Shown here one piece after another: positions 2,607-56,900 of a DNA stretch of 64,000 bases. The translations under genes were made by a program, and so were the position numbers. The stretch's first letter is position 1. Each line of letters starts with the position of its first letter. The notes below the pieces were generated by a model. That model worked only from the letters and a program-made list of their open reading frames with translations. It was not told the DNA's origin and did no database searches. Origin of the DNA: Mustelus asterias (lineage: Eukaryota); the NCBI RefSeq assembly GCF_964213995.1, contig NW_027590191.1, positions 310,001 to 374,000 on the forward strand, read 5' to 3'.

Positions 2607-2838
2607 ATTAATCTCACGGTTCCTGCTTTCTGAGTTAACCCTATCTCTGCTTCCCCGGCATTCGAAGAGTTTGTGCTTAATTCAGCGGGAAGTTTTCTTC
2701 TCATTTTGCGTGAGATTTGAACGAGGATCCGGGAGATTGTGTCTGTGGGAACAACAATCATCCGCAATGTCATTCAATCACTCCAGCCTTGCATCTTATC
2801 ACAAGGTCCTAAATAGAGTTCTCTCCCTGTATTTGCCG

Positions 2839-3245
2839 TAACTTCAGTGTATTTTTTTCTAATTCCATTTAGATTAGTTTTCTTTAACTGAACTTTGCCT
2901 CCTTACGTAGTTAAAGGGTAGATGTTTTAATTAATAATAAGATACAACAATGTGTCACCCTGTTTGACATGAAATAATACAAAGTGAGGATTAATCATTT
3001 CAAAATACGTTCTTAATTCAATATATATTTTGGAGGGGGTCTACCTCGGGGTGCCATTCACTCACTCATCTGTCCTAATTTAAACAAGAGGTGGGATGAC
3101 GAGAGTCCAGATTGCGAAGAGTCACACCATGGAAACGACAGCACTCTGACCTTTGACATTCGGCCTTTCTCCCAAAAGACATACACACACACGCACACAG
3201 ATACACACACACGCTTGCTCAATAATTGCCAGTCTCCAGTCGAAT
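2839..3245 (+). repeat. Local direct duplication, copy 1 (copy 2 at about 5300-5705)
   Basis: Colinear blocks taacttcag...gattagttttcttt...gtgtcaccctgtttgacatgaaat...gtgccattcactcactcatctgtcc...ccagtctccagtcgaatggtt occur in both places. Confidence 0.8.
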
Positions 3246-4216
3246 GGTTGTTGGTGTGTAACACCAAATGTTCCTTTCTTTCAACAGAGGAGTTAACGAG
3301 TAGTGAAAGATTTAAAAAAACACATTGTTGATGCAGGCATCTGTCGCCAGTGGCTCAGCAATGTGCAGTGTAATAGAAGTTGAACTGGCTGACAAATTGT
3401 CACCCCAATTCCTGCTTTGTGAGGAATTTAAACAAAAGGTCCTTCAACAAATCCATCCTCAACAATGGCAAAGAAGAGCAAGGATCCGCCTAAATTTAAA
3501 TTCGGTTCGCTGGATTCATATGCTCACCATTAGACCAGAGATCCTACAACAGAGCAGCCAGCTGATATCTGCAGCGATGTTGGGTTTGCTGAAGGGTATT
3601 TCATTTTAAATTCGCAGAAAGTGGAAATCTAAACACTGAGGGAAATTTCATCAAATTCCACCGCAGTCACATTGCAGATGATGCAGCGAATGACTCTCCT
3701 GGCGTCATTGCATCAGCCCCAGAGGGCAATTGCTCATGAATACACAGCGCTGAAAGGCAGGGAAGCCATAGTGGGCAAGGGGTCCACCTACATGTGGCAT
3801 TCAGTCACTCATCTGTCCCAATTTAATCAAGAAGTCGGAGCGAGAGGCCAGAGTGCGTTACACCTTAGAATCGGCAGCACTCTGATCGAAGACAGGAGAC
3901 TTTTCTACCACAACGCAGACACACACCGCCACACGCACACACACGCGCGCGCGTGCGCACTTACGCACGCACACACATGCCGAACTCCAGTCAATTTATT
4001 GTTCTCCGACACCAACTGCTTCCCTCTTTCAACTGAGGAGTTAAAGAGTAGCGAAAATATGAAAAGCATTGACGTTGCAGGCATCTGGTGCCAGAGGTTC
4101 AGCAATGTGCATTGTGATAGTCGTTGAACTGGCTCGTAAATTGTCTTCTCGGTTCGTCCTTTTTAACAAATTTAAACAAAATGCCCTTCAGTATATCAAT
4201 CATCTGTACTTGCAAA

Positions 4217-4566
4217 AGGCTTCTCGGCCTTTTGGCTAAGATCAAGTGTAGTTTGGATTGGATGCTGCACTTGGTTGAGGTCATTAGGTTACATTGAAGC
4301 TTCATATGTTTCATATGAAGCAATTTTTAAAAGCGGTATCTCGGCCTTTTGGCTAAGATGCAAAAGAGATCAAGTCTTGGAGGAGGTATTGCTTTCCCTC
4401 CTCCAATCAGCTTGGCTCATGTAGATCGGGCCCAGGACAGGGTAAATGGTCGCTTGCCCTGTCTTGCCAGCCTGGATCGGAAATGTCTCAACTTGTTGAG
4501 ACTCTGAATTGGACTTGATTTGATTGAATTAGAAAAGTATATTTAAAAAAAAATATATATAAAAAA
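4217..4566 (+). mobile_element. U2 snRNA-headed insertion, unit 1 (candidate SINEU-like or non-autonomous Keno-like retroposon)
   Basis: U2 nt 4-37 at 4219-4252, a second U2 piece (nt 7-27) at 4339-4359, several hairpins, an A-rich 3' end, and atctgtacttgcaaa on both sides. Confidence 0.65.
4219..4252 (+). pseudogene. U2 snRNA 5' fragment (nt 4-37)
   Basis: GCTTCTCGGCCTTTTGGCTAAGATCAAGTGTAGT is identical to the vertebrate U2 5' end; the rest of U2 is absent. Confidence 0.92.
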
Positions 4567-4581
4567 ATCTGTACTTGCAAA

Positions 4582-4898
4582 AGGCTTCTCGGCCTTTTGG
4601 CTAAGATCAAGTTTAGTATGGATCGGATGTTGCGCTTGGTGGAGGTCATTAGGTTACATTTAAGCTTCATTTGAAGCAATTTTTAAAAGCGGCATCTCGG
4701 CCTTTTGGCTAAGATGCAAATGAGATCAAGCCTTGAAGGAGGTGAGTTTGCACCTACTCCAATCAGCTTGGCTCATGTAGATCAGGCGCAAGACAAGAGT
4801 GAAGGCCCTGTCTTGTCAGCTTGGATCGGAAATTTCTCAACTTGTTGAGACCATGAATTGGACTTGATTTGATAGAATTGAAAAAGTATTTTTTAACA
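4582..4898 (+). mobile_element. U2 snRNA-headed insertion, unit 2 (tandem, 365-bp period)
   Basis: U2 nt 4-39 with one mismatch at 4584-4619 and a second U2 piece at 4695-4715; body is a diverged copy of unit 1; followed by atctgcatttgcaaa. Confidence 0.65.
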
Positions 4899-4921
4899 AT
4901 CTGCATTTGCAAATTGAAGCA

Positions 4922-4993
4922 AGGTCCCGCCGAGGTTTGAACTCGGATCGCTGGATTCAAAGTCCAGAGTGCTCACCATTACACCACGGAACC
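4922..4993 (-). tRNA. trnaq-uug: tRNA-Gln(TTG), intact
   Basis: Reverse complement GGTTCCGTGGTGTAATGGTGAGCACTCTGGACTTTGAATCCAGCGATCCGAGTTCAAACCTCGGCGGGACCT, 72 nt, all stems pair. Confidence 0.93.
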
Positions 4994-5978
4994 CACCACA
5001 CGACAACAAGCTGCAAATGGTCGCTCAATATTTGTGCCAATTTGGACAGCCGGGAGCAATATCAGTCCCATTGCACAAGCCCGTCAATTACCCACAGCAA
5101 TTCATATTTACATTGCCCTTGTTGGTTCCTCCTGAAAAAAAATGAGTAAGCTGTCTTCAAATGCATTAAATTTCATGCAGCTCACCACGTGCAAAGAGCA
5201 ATGCTGGTATCGAACTGTTATAAACCTGACTGCGGTAAAAAAATTCTGGTAAAAATGGATGGATGGATGGATTAAATGTTCTGGTAAAAATGATTTGCAT
5301 TAACTTCAGCGTCTTTTTTTCTCGTTCAATTTGGATTAGTTTTCTTTGACTGAACTTTATCTCCTTACGTAGTTAAAGGGTTGAGATTTTTTTTTAAATT
5401 AGATACACGGATGTGTCACCCTGTTTGACATGAAATGAAATAAAATGAGGATTAATCATTTCAAAAGATGTTATCAATTGAATATATATTTTGCAGGGGG
5501 TCCACCTACGGGTGCCATTCACTCACTCATCTGTCCCAATATAAGCCTGAGTTGGGACGGCGAAAGTTCAGATTGCTAAGCATGACACCATGGAAACGGT
5601 CGCACTCTGACCTACGACACGAGGACTTTCTCGCAAAACACACACGCACACACACACACACATACACACTCTTGCTCAATAATTGCCAGTCTCCAGTCGA
5701 ATGGTTACTTACTGCCGAGGAATGGAGAGCTGGAGTTCATCCAGGAAAGCAGCAAAGTTTATAAATAATGAGAACCAACCAATGTTGACCTGGTCCATCA
5801 TTCCTTGTGTCAGTCAATCCATTCTGTTATGCTCTCCATCACAAACCTTCCCTTTTAATCTAATTATTGAGTGATTCCCGTCTTCAATGCCGCAGGAACT
5901 CATTAGCTTAATTAATGTTTCGTGAGAAACGAGATCGTTCTGAAATTTGAATCAATTTGAAATAAAACCGGTTGGAAA

Positions 5979-11189: not shown

Positions 11190-12409
11190 ATGTCTCCTGT
11201 TACGCTGTACTTATTCCTCACAGCGTCAGCTCTTTTAACCCGTAGGTTCACAAGTTACTCAATTCTGTGTTTCACATCTTTACCACACATTATATTCTGT
11301 TGAGCTCAATGGGGTCAATGCAACGGGCGAGGGGTGGGTGATCGGGGAAATGGATTGATCCCAAATTCGAAAAGTCATTCGGATCTCGCTGGTCTCAAAA
11401 CAGAACACTGTTTGTTGGGAGTTGGCACATTTACCCCAGGGAATGAGAGAGGAATAGTTGGGCTGAGATTCAAACTCCTCTGGTGCCAGTGAATGTCTTT
11501 GCAAACGCCAGACTTTTAAACACAGAGAGTGAGCAGTTCCTGTTACAGTAACAGAGGAACTGATCTCGTTAGTAAGTGTGGAATGTTTATGATGGAAGTT
11601 TTATTCGATCACCACAAGCACCTTCCCGTTCCAGCGAATATACTGTGAAAAATATCTTTCTGTTCAGTTGTCTGATTTGTCTTTGAGGTTATTATTGTGG
11701 GCGGTACGGTGAGACAGTGGTTAGCATTGCTTCCTCACAGCTCCAGGAAACTGGGTTCGATTCCCGGTTTAGGTCACTGTCTGTGTGGAGTTTGCACGTT
11801 CTTCCCTCTGGTTTCCTCCCATTCCAAAGATGTGCGGGTTAGTTGCATTGGCCATGCTAAGTTTGAGAGTTTGAGACCCTTTGTGCCCTGGGATACGTAG
11901 GTTAGATGGATTAGCAGGGTAAATATGTGGAGGTACGGGGATAGGGCCTCCGTAAGATTGTTGTCAGTGCAGACTCGATAAGTCGAATGGCCTCCTTCTG
12001 CACTGTCGTGACTTTATGACTTTGTTGTTCAACATGGCGGGCAGATTCTGGGCCGAAACAGTCAAGTCGCATTGTGTAAGTTAATATTTATTTGTACCCT
12101 TACAGGACATTCCCGAGAAGATTCTGTTACACAGACACCGACTGCAGTCACTGTCACTGAAGGAGATGATGTTTGGTTGTTCTGTAATTATACAACGACA
12201 AGCAACCACATTTATCTATTCTGGTACCGTCAGTATCCCAGCGGGTCCATGGAGTATCTGGTGCAGACAAATAAATACACCGGGAACACAGACAGGTCTT
12301 CAGAGTACCGTTTTTCTGCGGAGCTCAATGATACAGCCCGCACCGTCCCACTGAAGGTGTCTAAAACAGAGCTGGCAGACTCCGTGGTGTATTACTACGC
12401 ACTGAGACC
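11190..12409 (+). pseudogene. TCR alpha/delta-type V segment, open frame but second Cys replaced by Tyr (leader 11190-11241, V exon 12106-12409)
   Basis: Leader MSPVTLYLFLTASALLT with a phase-1 GT donor; acceptor ttacag; DSVTQ...LFCNY...FWYRQ...DSVVYYYALRP. Confidence 0.88.
11699..12023 (+). mobile_element. HE1-type SINE in the V leader intron
   Basis: tRNA-derived head (ggcggtacggtg...gggttcgattccc) and HE1 core; absent from the paralogous intron. Confidence 0.85.
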
Positions 12410-25440: not shown

Positions 25441-26620
25441 TCAGGCCAGAAGATTTGAAAAAATGGAAAAGCATTGACTGTAGGAACCTGCAGCCGACAT
25501 TGGAGCATGGTCATTGTCGCATCACACGTCACTATAGGTAAAACACTCCAGTGTATTCGACCGTTCTGCTCTCAATGTTGAAAATGTTTTAAAGGCGAAT
25601 GTTTTATTGAGAATGTCAATATCGAGACTGAGCTGCCGACCAGTGCTGTTGCTGAGGAACTTTTGGTCATAGTTCCGTAGATGCCTGTTCAAATACCTAT
25701 TTTTGGTTGCATTGAACTGCGTTGCAATCATTAATGTCCATTTATGTTAGGTATGAAAGTAAGTATCTGGCATATATTCACTGAGAGCGAGTCAATATCC
25801 CAATGCTAAAACTCGAGTAAAGCTGAAACGCCCTCTGGTGGCATTTGTTCGAATTATGAGCCTCAATGTTCCACTTCTCCCTGAGAGATTGCACAGGACT
25901 GTGTTGTGGTGTGGGAGATCCTCATACTTGGACAGTGTGCCTCGTGCAGTGGGGAAGAGAGTTATATTTTACTCTGAGAGATTTGGTTTGAAGCGCAGAT
26001 TGGACACAAGGATGGATATCCATTTTGCCGGATGGGGAAAGGAGTTTGGCAAAGTGATAATTTGTTCATATTTTATTCAAGATTCATTTTAAAAATTCAG
26101 AGAACATTTCACAGAAACTTTTTTAAAAGTTCACAGAAGAGGACATAACGATTGATTTTCATATTGAGAACAGAGCACGTGTGCTCTGAGCTGCCCAATA
26201 TATGTAGAACTGTGACAGACACCAAAAACAGAAAACAGGAGCTCAACATAAAGAAAAGGAAACAATTGTGTATGTTGCGAAAAGATGAAAACAAAACATT
26301 GATGTTGCAGGCATCTGTCGCTCAGCAATGTGCAATGTAGGAGAAGTTGAACTGGCTGACAAACTGTCCTCCAGATTCCCACTTCATGATAAATTTCAAT
26401 AAAAGGTCGTTTCACAAATCAATCCTCAGCAATGGGAAGGAAGAGCATGGATCCACCGAAACTTATACCTGGATCGCTGGATCCAGAGTGCTCACAGTTA
26501 GACCAGCAATCGGCTTCAAATTGTCGCTCAAAGCAATTGACCCACTTGTTGTTGCTGCCGCATTGAATGAAGGAGGTCACATGCTTTGAGTGACCATTTG
26601 CATCTGGCGGCTCTGTTCCT

Positions 26621-26692
26621 GGTTAAGTGGTGCGATGGTGAGCACTCTGGACTCTGAATTCAGTAATATGAGTTCGGATCTCGGTGAAACGT
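26621..26692 (+). pseudogene. tRNA-Gln(CTG) pseudogene
   Basis: ggttaagtggtgcgatggtgagcactctggactctgaattcag...; broken acceptor stem. Confidence 0.7.
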
Positions 26693-26892
26693 TCCTTTTA
26701 TTTGCTAAAGCCGGTGATTGGTTTGCTGAAGGACATTTTATTTGAAATTCTCAGAAAGTGAATTTTAGACTCTGAGGAAATTTCAGCAAATTCCAACGCA
26801 ATCACATTGCAGACGATGCAGCGAATGATTCTCCTGGTGTTATTGCTTCAGCCCTCGAGGACGATTGCTCAAGAAAGCAAAGAGCTCGGGGG

Positions 26893-27190
26893 CAGAATCA
26901 AAAATTCCCTGCAGTGCAGAAGGAAGCCATTCGGCCCATCGAGCCTGCGCCGATAACAATCCCATCCTGAACCTATCCGCATATACATACCCTCTTAGTC
27001 CTTCTGACACTACGGGCAATGTAGCATGGCCAATCAACCTACCCACACACCTTTGAATTCTGCGCCGGATGCCCAGCGTCCTTCCACACACGCAGACACG
27101 GGGAGAATGTGCAAACTGCAGAAAGTCACTCGAAGCCAGAATTGAAACCCGGTGCCTAACACTGTGAGGCAGCATTGTGCAACCGTGCCG
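26893..27190 (-). mobile_element. HE1-type SINE
   Basis: Reverse complement of HE1; same position as 28310-28605 in the next array unit. Confidence 0.75.
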
Positions 27191-27281
27191 GAAATGCCAC
27201 AGAGGGCAGGGGTTCCCCAACCGGTATCATTCACTGAGCCCTTTCTCCCAATTTAAACAAGACTTAGAACGGAAAGAATAG

Positions 27282-27353
27282 TGGCTCCAACGAAATTGGA
27301 ACTCAGTTTGCTTGATTCACAGTCCAGAAAGCTAACCAGTTCACCATAGAACC
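27282..27353 (-). pseudogene. tRNA-Gln pseudogene
   Basis: Degenerate reverse-complement Gln ending caccatagaacc. Confidence 0.6.
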
Positions 27354-27410
27354 CACAGGCCGCTGGTTTGAGGCAGCAGGCCATTTTCCCAGATCTTTTT
27401 CTTAGTCACA

Positions 27411-27447
<37 letters not shown>

Positions 27448-27528
27448 TTTCTGCAATGTGCATTGTCATTGAAGTTGAACTGGCTGTCAAATTGTCCTCT
27501 CGATTCATACTTTGTGAGAAAGTTAAAC

Positions 27529-27876
27529 CTCGGTTGCCTCGGGAAAGCAGCCAACATAATTAAGCACCCCTCGCACCCCGGACATTCTCTCTTTCACCTT
27601 CTTCCGTCGGGAAAAAGATACAAACGTCTGAGGTCACGTACCAACTGACTCAAGAACAGTTTGTGCCCTGCTGCCGTCAGACTTTTGAATGTACCTACCT
27701 TCTATTAAGTTGACCTTTCTCTGCACCCCAGCTATGACGGTGACATTACATCCTGCACTCTCTCATTCCCTTCCCCATGAACGTTATGCTTTGTCTGTAT
27801 AATGCGCAAGAAACAGTACCTTTCACTGTATACTAATACATGTGACAATAATAAATCAAATCAAAATCAAATCAAA
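27529..27876 (+). mobile_element. Rex1/Babar LINE 3' fragment
   Basis: KAANIIKHPSHPGHSLFHLLPSGKRYKRLRSRTN and an (aaatc)n tail. Confidence 0.85.
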
Positions 27877-27919
27877 CATCATCTCGCAAATCAATCATCA
27901 GAATTGGCAAAGAAAAACA

Positions 27920-27991
27920 ACGTTCCAAGGAGATTCGAACTCAGATTGCTGGATTCAGACTCTAGAGTGCCCACAATTTCACCACAGAACC
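27920..27991 (-). pseudogene. tRNA-Gln(CTG) pseudogene
   Basis: Degenerate reverse-complement Gln, head-to-head with 28034-28105. Confidence 0.65.
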
Positions 27992-28033
27992 AAATGCGTT
28001 TGGTGACGATTTGCAAGTGGCGCCCGTGTTCCC

Positions 28034-28105
28034 GGTTGTGTGGTGTAACGGTGAGCATTCTGAACTCTGAATCCAGTAATCTGAAATCAGATCTCGGTGG
28101 AGCCT
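28034..28105 (+). pseudogene. tRNA-Gln(CTG) pseudogene
   Basis: ggttgtgtggtgtaacggtgagcattctgaactctgaatccag...ctcggtggagcct; B-box mutated. Confidence 0.65.
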
Positions 28106-28309
28106 CGCTTTCCTTTACTAAAGCCGATGATTGGTTTGCGGAAGGGTATTTTATTTATAATTGGCAGAAAGTGAAATTTTAATCTCTGAAGAAATTTCAG
28201 CAAATTCCACCGCATTTACATTGCAGACGATGCAGGAAATGATTTCCGAGCTTCATGGCTTCAGCCACAGAGGACGATTGCTCAAGAAAATGAGGAGTTC
28301 GGAGGCAGA

Positions 28310-28605
28310 ATCATAGAACCCTTATGGTGTATAAGGAAGCCATTTGGCTCATCTACCCGGCACCAGCAGCAATCGCACCCAGTCTCCATCCCTGTAATCC
28401 CGCATATTTACCCAGTTAATCCCCTGACTCTAAGGGTAACGTAACATGACCAATCAACCTAATCCGCACATTTTTGTCTTATAGGACGTGTGCTCGGTTT
28501 TCTTCCGCACATACAGACACGGGGAGAATGTGCAACTGCACACAGTCACCCGAAGCCAGAACTGAACACGGGTCCTGTTACTGGGAGGCAGCAGTGCCAA
28601 CCACA
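28310..28605 (-). mobile_element. HE1-type SINE
   Basis: Reverse complement of the HE1 head and core. Confidence 0.7.
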
Positions 28606-28675
28606 GTTATTCTACCGATATAATTCGCTGAGTCATCTGCCCCAAGTTAAGCAGGAGTTCGGGCGTTGAGAATAG

Positions 28676-28747
28676 TGGTTTCATTGAGATTCGAGCTCGG
28701 ATTGCTGGATTCAAAATCCAGAGTGCTCACCGTTACACCATGGAACC
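28676..28747 (-). pseudogene. tRNA-Gln(TTG) pseudogene
   Basis: Reverse complement GGTTCCATGGTGTAACGGTGAGCACTCTGGATTTTGAATCCAGCAATCCGAGCTCGAATCTCAATGAAACCA; T-arm defects. Confidence 0.75.
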
Positions 28748-29045
28748 AACTGGGCGCTGTTTTAATGCGGGAGGTCTTTCACCCAAATCTCACACAAACA
28801 CACTCTTGCTCAATTATTGCCAGGCTCCAGTCGGGTTTTTGTTTGACACCAACTGCTCCTCTGATTCGACAGAACGTCAAAGAGTAGCGAAAGATGAAAA
28901 AAGAAAAACACTGATGCTACAAGCATCTGGCGCCAGAGTCTCAGCAATGTGTATTGACAAAGTGCCCTCTCGATTCGTACATGGTGACAAATGGAGAATA
29001 AATGTCATGGAGAAAATCAATTATCAGCATTGGTAAAGGAGAGCA

Positions 29046-29117
29046 AGGCTCCACCGAGATTTGAACTCAGATCGCAGCATTGAAAGCTCAGCGAGCTCAC
29101 CACTACACCACGGAACA
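29046..29117 (-). pseudogene. tRNA-Gln pseudogene
   Basis: Gln-like acceptor and T arms, decayed anticodon arm. Confidence 0.6.
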
Positions 29118-29353
29118 CAGAGCACCGCAATGACTTGCAAATGACCTGCGAAACATGGCTATTTCTGGAGATATCTCCCGATAGGTCTTGCGATGAAATA
29201 ATTTGAGATTTGGGGCACTCTGCCTTCTGAGCTTTTCTGATATCAACGGTGGCCTATAACGACCCATTGTTATCATACTTGCTGTTGCTGTCACATCGAA
29301 TGAAAGAGATCAAATTGTTCGAGTGATCATTTGCCGGCAATGGGCGTGTTCTG

Positions 29354-29425
29354 TGATCTGTGGTGTACCGGTGAGCGCTCTGGAATCTGAATCCAGCAAT
29401 TCGAGTTCGTATCGTGGCAAAACCT
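29354..29425 (+). pseudogene. tRNA-Gln(CTG) pseudogene
   Basis: gtggtgtaccggtgagcgctctggaatctgaatccagcaattcgagttcg. Confidence 0.6.
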
Positions 29426-29811
29426 TGAGTTTTTTTGCTAAAGCCGATGATGGGTTTGCAGAAGGGCATTTTATTTTAAATTGTCAGAAAGTGGAAATCT
29501 AAACACTGACGAAATCTCAGCAAATTCCACGGCATTCAAATTGCAGACGCTGCAGCGAATGCCTCTCCTGGCGTCATTGCATCAGCCCCAGAGGATGATT
29601 GCTCAGGAATACAATGCGCTGAGAGGCAGGGAAGCCACTGTAGACAGCGGAGTCCATCTTCATGTGTCGTGTCATTCACTCACTCATCTGTCCCAATTTA
29701 AAGAGTTCGGAGGCGAGAGGCCAGAGTGCGATCCGTTACACCATGGAATCGACAGCTCTGTGACCGAAGACACTAGACTTGTCTCCCAAAACACACACAC
29801 GTACCTACACT

Positions 29812-29849
29812 CGCTCTCTCTCTCTCTCTCTCACGCGCGCGCGCGAGCG

Positions 29850-29890
<41 letters not shown>
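29812..29890. repeat. Compound (CT)n(CG)n(CA)n microsatellite
   Basis: Visible tract; related CA/CG tract at about 3918-3978 in the paralog. Confidence 0.9.
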
Positions 29891-29894
<4 letters not shown>

Positions 29895-30142
29895 CCAATA
29901 ATTGCTGGACTCCATTCGAAGGGCTGTTGCTCCGGCACCAGCTGCTCCTTTCTTTCAACAGAGGAGTTAAAGAGAAGATAAAATATGAAAAGACATTGAC
30001 GCGGCAGGCATCTGGCGCCAGAGGCTCAGCAATGCGCATTGGAATAGCAATTGAACTGGCTGACAAATTGCCCTCTCGATTCGGACGTTGTGAAAAAATT
30101 GAACGAAACGCCCTTCGGCAAATCAACCATCAGCGTTGACCA

Positions 30143-30214
30143 AGGTTCCGCCGAGATTTGAACTCAGATCGCTGGATTCAGAGTCCAGAGTGCTCACCAT
30201 TACACCACGGAACC
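30143..30214 (-). tRNA. trnaq-cug: tRNA-Gln(CTG), intact
   Basis: Reverse complement GGTTCCGTGGTGTAATGGTGAGCACTCTGGACTCTGAATCCAGCGATCTGAGTTCAAATCTCGGCGGAACCT, 72 nt. Confidence 0.92.
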
Positions 30215-30544
30215 AAACACACAATACCCGCCTGCAAATAATCATGCAATACCTGTGCCAGTCTGAACAGCAGGGAGAAAAATCATTCCCATTCCACAAT
30301 CCCGTCAATTACCCACAGCAATTCATACTGACATTGCCCTGCTGTTTCCTCCGAAAATAATGAGTACTCTACCTTCAACTGCATTGAATTTCACTGCAGC
30401 TCACCACATTCAAACAGCAATGTTAGCATCGACCTGTTACAAACTCTGTTGTGGTAAATCTACTGAACAGCATCAGCTGTTCACCCTCTATTTTCGTCGC
30501 ATTGGAAGCCAGTGTGAAAATGTGAACAATTTCTAACCTTAACA

Positions 30545-55569: not shown

Positions 55570-56900
55570 CTGTTGCCGTTTTACAGCAGGTGTTCAATCA
55601 TGCCATACAAACATAGCAAACAATTACAATTACAATTAATACAATCAATCCATGCATCAGCTATGCACCCCACGACCCAAACCATTGCCCCAACCATCCC
55701 GGAGGGTTCTAATTGTGATACTGGCTCCCCTCATCCTGTATTGTTTCTGCCGCGTGTTTAATATGATCTGCTAAGCGAGATATATTCTCCAAAGCATCGG
55801 GAATGTACGTACAGCATTCCGAGCCAACTGTGGCATATGTTCCTCCCTGGGAGGCTACCACATAATCGAGTGCCAATCGGTTCTGTGCTGCCACAGTGTG
55901 AATAGCTACGACCTCTGCTGATATCTCAGAGACGGCCGTGCTCACCTCCTCGAACCCATCCTTAGTCTCATTCGCAATTCTCTCTAAGGTCGAGGCCATT
56001 CGTATAAGTTCTTGGGCTGCCTTTGCTGTCCCATAAAGTGGGTAGGCTATCATGAAGAACCATTCTGTCTCACTAATGGCTCGCCTAGCCGTAAGCAGGT
56101 GTATCTCGGTGTGGTCCCGTAAGTCAGTGTAATGGTGAATATGAGGCACCGCATATGCCAAATAACACGATCCTGCCCAATTCCAGGGAAGGCATGGATA
56201 GGCATTGCTTCCACAGATAAAATAGGTACCATTATATGCAGTCATCGTGCTTACATAAGCGCGGAGAGACTAACCGGGATGATGGCTTTGGGGCACTGGA
56301 TTGTGACCTGTACCATGGCCCAAGCGTCATTAGTGATATCAATCTGCTATATACAGTAGCTACGGTCAACAGGTATGGTTCCATTTCTTATCAGGCTGAT
56401 AGATCCCCTTTGTTTATTTTTCACAACGAAGTAGGGTGGGGATTCTGATCTGTCATAGCTGGGCTGGTAATGTTTCTTAAAGGTCGATCAAGTACACCCT
56501 CCGCCCCCTAGCTTTAACACAACATCACTGTTGCTAACATTAAACGTACCCTGCATCGTGGTACCCAATGGGGTTTTGAATGTCAGTTTCCTTGTCCCTT
56601 TCTGGGTTCCATTCTGATTTAAAACCCATTCAATTACTTCCGGAGCTGATAAAGGGATAGGGCTTAAAGGAATTCCTCCCTTTCTTCCGTGCGTGGGAAT
56701 GTGTGAACAGACCCAGTACTTGCTCAGATCCGATTGTGATGCATACAGATAAGACATATACACAAAGGTGTTCATACAATAGACAGAGTCATCATTACAG
56801 AGATGTTCACTGTGTCCCATCCCTAAATTCTCATAGTTCCATCTATACTTTCCCGCTACGGCTAACAGGGCCAGGGTCGTGAGAAGCAGCATGAAAATCA
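55570..56900 (-). pseudogene. env: ERV env remnant (SU 56488-56922; TM 55709-56245)
   Basis: Signal peptide MIFMLLLTTLALLAVAG; WVCSHIP; CLPWNWAGSC; ARR-AI cleavage-like site; ISD QNRLALD; CX6CC remnant TYATVGSECC. Confidence 0.85.

What the first reader, a model, noticed from the sequence alone, without database searches (positions are those of the whole stretch)
4202..4913. Tandem U2-snRNA-headed retroposon-like element: candidate new shark SINEU or non-autonomous Keno partner
Seen: two diverged units with a 365-bp period. Each starts with U2 nt 4-37 (4219-4252; 4584-4619), contains a second U2 piece (nt 7-27, then agatcaag again), has a non-U2 body of about 300 nt and ends A/T-rich. The units are bracketed by atctgtacttgcaaa (4202, 4567) and atctgcatttgcaaa (4899), like target-site duplications. 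Five paralogous sites (about 3450, 26416, 27889, 29017, 30121: aatcaatcatcagcattggcaaa...aagg-tRNA-Gln) are empty, so this is an insertion. The flank ATCTGTACTT resembles U2 nt 38-47 (ATCTGTTCTT), the sequence that should follow the head. Established: Tx1-clade Keno and Utopia elements insert specifically into U2 genes near this position, and snRNA-headed SINEs (SINEU) are described from crocodilians. Inference: a U2-promoter-derived non-autonomous element mobilised by a U2-targeting LINE into a U2-like off-target site.
Basis: partly seen in the sequence, partly recalled or inferred. Interest (0 to 1): 0.85.

Follow-up and report, generated by a model that had tools for sequence, protein, structure and literature searches.

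The report
SINE that nests in U2 genes
These are two copies of a short jumping element with over 4,000 copies in this genome (likely a shark's); it starts with a piece of the U2 splicing RNA, also sits inside real U2 genes at the site used by its likely helper retrotransposon, and likely borrows those genes' promoter, which would explain how such promoterless elements get transcribed.

Summary
Both units belong to a dispersed ~330-bp family with a U2 nt 1-39 head, an A-tail and target-site duplications (4,207 exact tail hits). 49 of 72 sampled sites start at U2 nt 1-15. The likely helper is a Tx1-type LINE that also has a U2 head and inserts at the Keno site (U2 nt 38); SINE copies abut it at 6 of 20 loci. 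Seven SINE tails run straight into U2 nt 38-52. Two copies sit directly behind U2 upstream DNA in U2 arrays, and four dispersed blocks carry that upstream DNA along, so some source copies lie in U2 genes. Transcription from the U2 promoter is inferred; no RNA was examined. Corrections: most copies are not at U2-like sites, and the 'non-U2' body is U2-derived, including an antisense arm predicted to fold over the head (79 of 79 copies). A second, older U2-derived family exists. I found SINEU described only from crocodilians; Repbase/Dfam were not checked; 'shark' is weakly tested. The scan earlier noted an analogous spliced-leader system in another genome (e1-7803915), not this family.

The parts
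4202..4216 (+). Target-site duplication, left copy
   Evidence: Identical to 4567-4581; 3 differences from 4899-4913
4219..4252 (+). Unit 1 head, U2 nt 4-37
   Evidence: 100% to this genome's U2 gene
4264..4302 (+). Antisense arm complementary to the U2 head; predicted to fold the head into one long hairpin
   Evidence: MFE fold of the unit; antisense similarity reached by 1 of 2000 shuffles; 79 of 79 family copies against 13 of 79 shuffled controls
4333..4422 (+). Module 2: second U2 piece (nt 7-27 at 4339-4359) plus hairpin; homologous to the 5' half of the older family B (borders approximate)
   Evidence: (E 3.6e-8)
4423..4523 (+). Module 3: homologous to family B, and through it to U2 nt ~45-100 (borders approximate)
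   Evidence: E 3.3e-12
4524..4566 (+). 3' end and A-rich tail; shares only a short AAAGTAT(A)TTT-type motif with the LINE tail
   Evidence: longer 3' similarity to the LINE not significant (105 of 1000 shuffles)
4567..4581 (+). Target-site duplication, middle copy, between the two insertions
4584..4898 (+). Unit 2: copy of an older subfamily, likely inserted first; its MFE does not show the head hairpin
   Evidence: tree position; fold
4899..4913 (+). Target-site duplication, right copy; closest to the empty paralogous sites
4921..4994 (-). tRNA-Gln(TTG) gene; the insertion lies in its 3' trailer. Context, not part of the element

Best explanation
The window holds two stacked copies of a U2-headed short retroposon with over 4,000 copies, which is likely moved by a Keno-like Tx1 LINE and likely transcribed from the external promoter of the U2 genes in which some of its copies sit. 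SHOWN: the family, its duplicated target sites and A-tails; the LINE with its own U2 head; insertions of both at U2 nt 38; copies directly behind U2 upstream DNA; dispersed copies that carried U2-array DNA with them. INFERRED: (1) LINE proteins nick U2 at nt 37/38 and, more often, loose look-alike sites. (2) When the element lands in a U2 gene, its head replaces or follows the gene's own first ~38 nt, so Pol II starting at U2 +1 makes head + body + tail. (3) This RNA is copied to thousands of dispersed sites that lack a promoter, and only rare re-entry into U2 genes renews the sources, one per subfamily. (4) The antisense arm folds over U2 nt 4-39 and would hide the U6-pairing and branch-point-recognition region, either making the RNA harmless to splicing or serving as a signal for LINE proteins. 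In the window, unit 2 likely inserted first and unit 1 later into the left duplication.
For: Copy number: 1,814 exact hits of a body 33-mer and 4,207 of a tail 21-mer, controls 0. 28 of 30 sampled U2-head loci carry this body. Duplications scoring >=9 at 29 of 67 sites (null 3 of 150) and 22 of 41 further sites. 5' ends at U2 nt 1-15 in 49 of 72 sites. LINE: ORF1 with ZCCHC3-type RBDs and CCHC knuckle, ORF2 with APE, RT and zf-RVT; a homolog is named TX1 149 kDa protein; its 3' flank equals the Keno target quoted in PMC6136364. Seven SINE tails are followed by U2 nt 38-52 (control 0); of 33 A-tail + U2 38-52 joints, 7 are this SINE, 23 the LINE (15 one amplified unit), 1 family B, 1 another element, 1 unexamined. 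SINE abuts the LINE at 6 of 20 LINE loci examined, of 44 found. SINE directly behind U2 upstream DNA at G000:C24:43060542 and C21:28.064 Mb. Dispersed blocks carrying variant-U2 upstream DNA plus SINE on C1, C6, C8, C14, three with duplications of 10, 16 and 18 bp. The 9 U2-flanked copies fall in several separate clades of a 94-copy tree. Double-headed copies end their first U2 piece at nt 49-58, where the in-gene duplication ends. Hairpin: 79 of 79 copies against 13 of 79 controls; LINE 10 of 10 against 6 of 40; G-U-keeping changes at 9 sites against 2 pair-breaking.
Against: No RNA-level evidence was obtained, so start site and promoter use are untested. Only 2 promoter-adjacent SINE copies were found in the arrays, and the C24 one is decayed. 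The transduced blocks prove read-through from upstream in the array, not initiation at the copy's own +1. The variant U2 array may not be active; its upstream DNA is not significantly like that of the main array (136 of 2000 shuffles). SINE and LINE share no significant 3' homology. About 99.8% of copies are outside U2 sequences. None of 20 LINE copies has an unbroken ORF2 (longest stretches 1,063 and 1,067 aa). The hairpin counts are of related copies, not independent events; family B lacks the hairpin (0 of 4) and still spread; window unit 2 does not fold it.
Confidence: 0.65

Rival explanations
1. Same family and same LINE partner, but sources are ordinary dispersed copies transcribed by read-through from whatever promoter lies upstream, as Kojima proposed for SINEU; the in-U2 copies are a by-product of LINE targeting.
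For: Read-through RNAs clearly were retrotransposed. PMC4494074 reports flank-derived 5' extensions in SINEU-2. In-U2 copies are few.
Against: 5' ends pile up at U2 nt 1-15 (49 of 72). The upstream extensions I identified come from U2 arrays or U2 itself; I did not search systematically for shared non-U2 extensions.
Confidence: 0.17
2. The head is not inherited; reverse transcriptase switches to free U2 snRNA at each insertion, so the copies are a sum of chimeras.
For: Template switching to snRNAs is established (PMC4494074 discussion). Extra U2 pieces precede some copies.
Against: Head-body junctions are fixed within subfamilies (16 of 94 copies share one). The body carries an arm complementary to the head. 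Two sister copies share a head substitution (L054 and one L114 copy). Head-less copies are 5'-truncated at scattered points.
Confidence: 0.07
3. The element has an unrecognised internal promoter and behaves as a conventional SINE.
For: Copy number is high for an element with few sources; the strong conserved structure (z -3.4 to -8.5 in 5 copies) could hold unknown signals.
Against: No tRNA, 5S or 7SL part. T-runs inside the unit would stop Pol III (sequence). PMC4494074 states that no internal snRNA promoter is known.
Confidence: 0.08
4. A one-off truncated U2 pseudogene chimera.
For: 3'-truncated U2 retrocopies exist in vertebrates (PMC5322556 passages); 1 of 30 U2-head loci here is one (L093).
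Against: Thousands of copies with the same body and tail.
Confidence: 0.01

Closest known systems
SINEU-1/2/3 of crocodilians (Kojima 2015, PMC4494074; parts 1-4 of 5 read)
   Same: U2-derived head, more than one snRNA piece, under 500 bp, poly-A tail, target-site duplications, tandem copies sandwiching a duplication, Tx1 partners that also carry snRNA heads, no internal promoter, no clear 3' homology to a LINE.
   Different: The paper found SINEU only in crocodilians, targeting Mariner-N4_AMi via Tx1-Mar, and left transcription open. Here the host is likely a shark, the shared target is U2 nt 38, copies sit behind U2 upstream DNA, and an antisense arm folds over the head (not mentioned in the parts read). 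Sequence homology to SINEU could not be tested.
Keno (Tx1 clade, U2-specific; passages in PMC4640811, PMC6136364, PMC4494074)
   Same: The partner LINE has APE + RT, and its 3' junction is at U2 nt 38/39 with a duplication ending at nt 52-58.
   Different: Specificity is loose: many copies are dispersed (320 exact tail hits; 23 joints at the U2 site). No non-autonomous Keno partner appeared in my searches. The finding itself is non-coding.
Utopia (PMC4640811, passages)
   Same: Same U2 site; 20-bp duplications in reptiles; relaxed targeting in crocodilians.
   Different: Utopia has a restriction-like endonuclease; the LINE here has an APE.
R2 in 28S rDNA (as discussed in PMC4494074)
   Same: Relies on the promoter of the multicopy RNA gene it targets.
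   Different: R2 is autonomous, co-transcribed by Pol I and freed by a ribozyme; here the host gene's own first ~38 nt would stay on as the head.

Membership tests
SINEU | 5' head from U1 or U2 snRNA | tested here: met
   U2 nt 1-39
SINEU | Short (<500 bp), non-coding, 3' poly-A, target-site duplications | tested here: met
   ~330 bp
SINEU | A retrotransposing unit with shared structure, not a sum of chimeras | tested here: met
SINEU | Tx1-clade partner with shared target preference | tested here: met
   trans-mobilisation itself is inferred
SINEU | Sequence homology to crocodilian SINEU-1/2/3 bodies | not testable with these tools
   No Repbase/Dfam access; the paper's figures are not held and its supplements were not opened
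SINEU | Preference for Mariner-N4_AMi | not tested
   No reference sequence; flanks of sampled copies are unrelated to each other
Keno (partner LINE) | Tx1-type ORF1/ORF2 with APE endonuclease | tested here: met
Keno (partner LINE) | 3' junction at U2 nt 38/39 | tested here: met
   target as quoted in PMC6136364
Keno (partner LINE) | Insertion confined to U2 genes | tested here: not met
   Most of 20 examined full-head copies are dispersed, with unrelated flanks
Keno (partner LINE) | RT phylogeny with named Keno elements | not tested
   No sequence labelled Keno was returned
Utopia | Restriction-like endonuclease | tested here: not met
   APE domain found
Canonical Pol III SINE | tRNA, 7SL or 5S head with internal promoter | tested here: not met
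Tailless U2 retropseudogene | 3'-truncated U2 with no body or tail | tested here: not met
   Constant body and tail in thousands of copies

The most novel reading that the evidence does not exclude
A promoterless retroposon that lives by re-entering U2 genes: the U2 gene supplies promoter, cap and head, the Keno-like LINE supplies the enzymes, and an antisense arm, present in both SINE and LINE in different registers, hides U2's splicing-active 5' end so that the hijacked transcript neither poisons splicing nor is handled as an snRNA. This would explain how snRNA-headed SINEs are transcribed and why they keep gaining snRNA heads.
Probability: 0.35. Interest if true: 0.86.

Novelty: new variant of a known kind. 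Interest (0 to 1): 0.72.

Why it matters
How snRNA-headed SINEs are transcribed was left open in 2015 (PMC4494074) and was still called undemonstrated in 2018 (PMC5786205 passage). This genome names candidate source loci inside U2 arrays and shows retrocopies that carried U2 upstream DNA, so the borrowed-promoter model can be tested directly. It would also extend SINEU-type elements beyond crocodilians, give a Keno-type LINE a non-autonomous partner, and point to an RNA fold that may neutralise a spliceosomal sequence.

Tried and rejected
No reads were laid, so expression and insertion polymorphism stay open. Direct pairwise alignment of the body to U2 nt 40-191 was not significant (440 and 465 of 1000 shuffles; 3 of 1000 for one stretch against variant U2); the U2 origin of modules 2-3 rests on family B as a bridge. 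SINE versus LINE 3' UTR and 5' UTR: not significant (63-126 of 1000). U2-like target consensus in dispersed copies: rejected beyond G at -2 (20 of 46, p 5e-4) and A at -3 (21 of 46, p 0.012), uncorrected, and the A-tail blurs the duplication start. Shared promoter motif between the two U2 arrays: inconclusive. The tree's label-change statistic was uninformative because only two groups were labelled. The first hairpin count (47 of 47) selected copies by a motif in the arm and was redone without that filter. Alignment folding found only 4 of 50 pairs with double-sided change, so covariation support is thin. Host identification by protein search gave 1 unnamed hit and 1 named shark hit of 6. Literature searches listed no shark SINEU or Keno-dependent SINE; most subscription papers and Repbase Reports are outside the library. 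PMC5499810 (shark SINEs) has no mention of snRNA, SINEU or Tx1 (term search). Look-ups of earlier scan notes by place and by sequence were empty.

Full report
Observation. The two units, the three flank motifs, the U2 pieces and the five empty paralogous sites are all present as described. The insertion lies in the 3' trailer of a tRNA-Gln gene. The whole locus was later duplicated: eight other places carry the same tandem pair with the same flanks, and one carries a single recombined unit (L027).

It is a family. The body search gave 2,317 candidates, of which 40 were scored, mostly at 97-100% and on many chromosomes. Exact counts are 1,814 for a body 33-mer and 4,207 for a tail 21-mer, with reversed controls at 0. 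Of 2,850 exact U2-head hits, 30 were read: 28 carry this body, 1 belongs to a second family and 1 is a short U2 pseudogene. Duplications scoring 9 or more flank 29 of 67 sites (3 of 150 in swapped-flank controls) and 22 of 41 further sites. Tandem stacks occur at 7 of 31 and 5 of 41 sites. 49 of 72 sites begin at U2 nt 1-15 by BLAST start. In 94 near-full copies, mean identity is 90% and nearest-neighbour median 97.3%. Unit 1 falls in the youngest clade and unit 2 in an older one, which fits unit 2 inserting first.

The partner. True U2 genes lie in arrays on C24 with 1,833-bp and 8,035-bp periods. The longer unit holds a LINE with a U2 nt 5-35 head, ORF1 with ZCCHC3-type and CCHC domains, and ORF2 with APE, RT and zf-RVT. 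Homologs include a TX1 149-kDa protein. Its tail joins U2 at nt 38 with a duplication of nt 38-58, which is the Keno target quoted in PMC6136364 (passages) and the site shared with Utopia (PMC4640811, passages). The LINE is also dispersed: 320 exact tail hits and 44 head junctions. Of those 44, 20 were read: 6 have a SINE directly abutting, and none has an unbroken ORF2. SINE and LINE share only a short tail motif; longer homology was not significant. Mobilisation by this LINE is therefore inferred from shared sites, not from a shared tail.

Copies in U2 genes. Seven SINE tails run into U2 nt 38-52 (control 0). Of 33 A-tail/U2-38 joints, 7 are this SINE, 23 the LINE (15 of them the amplified unit, one read in full), 1 family B, 1 another element and 1 unexamined. 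One SINE copy sits behind 300 bp of main-array upstream DNA (C24:43060542; decayed). Another sits behind upstream DNA of a variant U2 array on C21 (448-bp period, ~90% to main U2), among several LINE copies at the same site. A search for variant-U2 upstream DNA gave 10 hits: 5 in that array and 5 dispersed. Four dispersed blocks hold the SINE and one holds the LINE; three SINE blocks have duplications of 10, 16 and 18 bp around the whole block and one has none. These are retrocopies of RNA made in the array. The 9 U2-flanked rows scatter over several clades, which suggests repeated sources. Five double-headed places have a first U2 piece ending at nt 49-58, where in-gene duplications end; an insertion into a pre-existing U2 pseudogene could also give some of these.

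Targets elsewhere. Dispersed copies do not show a U2-like target: 0 of 46 reach 12/20 identity, and the mean is 8.15 against 7.74 for random sites. G at -2 (20 of 46) and A at -3 (21 of 46) echo U2 nt 35-36. The window's second target scores 12/20 and its first 10/20.

Anatomy. The ~45 nt after the head are an imperfect antisense copy of U2 nt 4-39 (1 of 2000 shuffles). The head is predicted to pair with it in 79 of 79 copies, against 13 of 79 shuffled controls; the real U2 gene scores 0.03 on the same measure. Common departures from perfect antisense keep G-U pairs at 9 sites and break pairs at 2. The LINE 5' end makes a similar hairpin in another register (10 of 10, control 6 of 40; 5 sites against 0). 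These copies share descent, so the counts are not independent. Family B (0 of 4) and window unit 2 do not fold it. That U2's 5' end pairs with U6 and the branch point is partly from PMC4494074 and partly recalled. Family B (2,857 candidates, 40 scored, 88-92% apart from the query itself) is a diverged U2 nt 3-155 with a short insert near nt 35. Its profile matches two successive modules of the body (E 3.6e-8 and 3.3e-12), so the body is U2-derived by duplication.

Mechanism and rivals. I commit to the borrowed-promoter cycle at 0.65. Read-through from arbitrary promoters (0.17), a hidden internal promoter (0.08), per-insertion template switching (0.07) and a one-off pseudogene (0.01) are the rivals. 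No RNA was examined, only two promoter-adjacent copies were found, and transduction shows read-through rather than initiation at +1.

Comparison and novelty. The element meets the four SINEU features I could test; homology to the crocodilian families could not be tested. It works like a SINEU and is best filed as a new variant. PMC4494074 (parts 1-4 of 5 read, supplements not opened) found SINEU only in crocodilians and left transcription open. PMC5786205 (passage) repeats that; PMC8010984 and PMC8143547 (passages) add no shark family. Eight searches listed no such family, but Repbase and Dfam were not checked, so it may be catalogued. An earlier scan note (e1-7803915) describes an analogous spliced-leader-headed LINE/SINE system in another genome; I did not check it, and my reading was formed before seeing it.

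Noticed in passing
L094 (G000:C1:9699504-9699710) and L169-L183: Family B: a second, older U2-derived SINE (~240 bp, diverged U2 nt 3-155 with an insert resembling the LINE's 5' end); 2,857 candidates; one copy sits at the U2 nt 38 site (L209).
   Followed up: partly
G000:C21:28.045-28.082 Mb (L126-L130): Variant U2 array (448-bp period, ~90% to main U2) packed with LINE copies at nt 38 in both orientations; activity unknown.
   Followed up: partly
G000:C24:44.81-44.94 Mb (L073): An 8,035-bp unit (intact U2 gene plus a LINE-disrupted U2 gene lacking its upstream DNA) amplified about 16 times in tandem.
   Followed up: partly
L213 (G000:C17:61749595): A third A-tailed element joined to U2 nt 38, with a tail resembling older copies of the family.
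   Followed up: no
heads of 79 copies: A>G changes (7 of 395 A) but no T>C (0 of 553 T) in the head, 4 at one site; could be editing of the hairpin or shared descent.
   Followed up: partly
L025, L031, L046, L248: Stacked copies whose later units begin at U2 nt 29, suggesting a second favoured insertion point inside existing heads.
   Followed up: no
window 12105-12404 (+): T-cell-receptor-alpha-like V segment that lacks the second cysteine; likely an orphan pseudogene.
   Followed up: partly
window 55709-56269 (-): ORF fragment resembling a retroviral env protein (resemblance recalled, not searched).
   Followed up: no
window 2800-5700 and 26200-30500: Decaying tRNA-Gln/Glu gene cluster in both orientations; the insertion locus recurs on at least nine other places, one with a single recombined unit (L027).
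   Followed up: partly
window 38214-38309 (+): tRNA-Tyr call of 96 bases, likely intron-containing.
   Followed up: no
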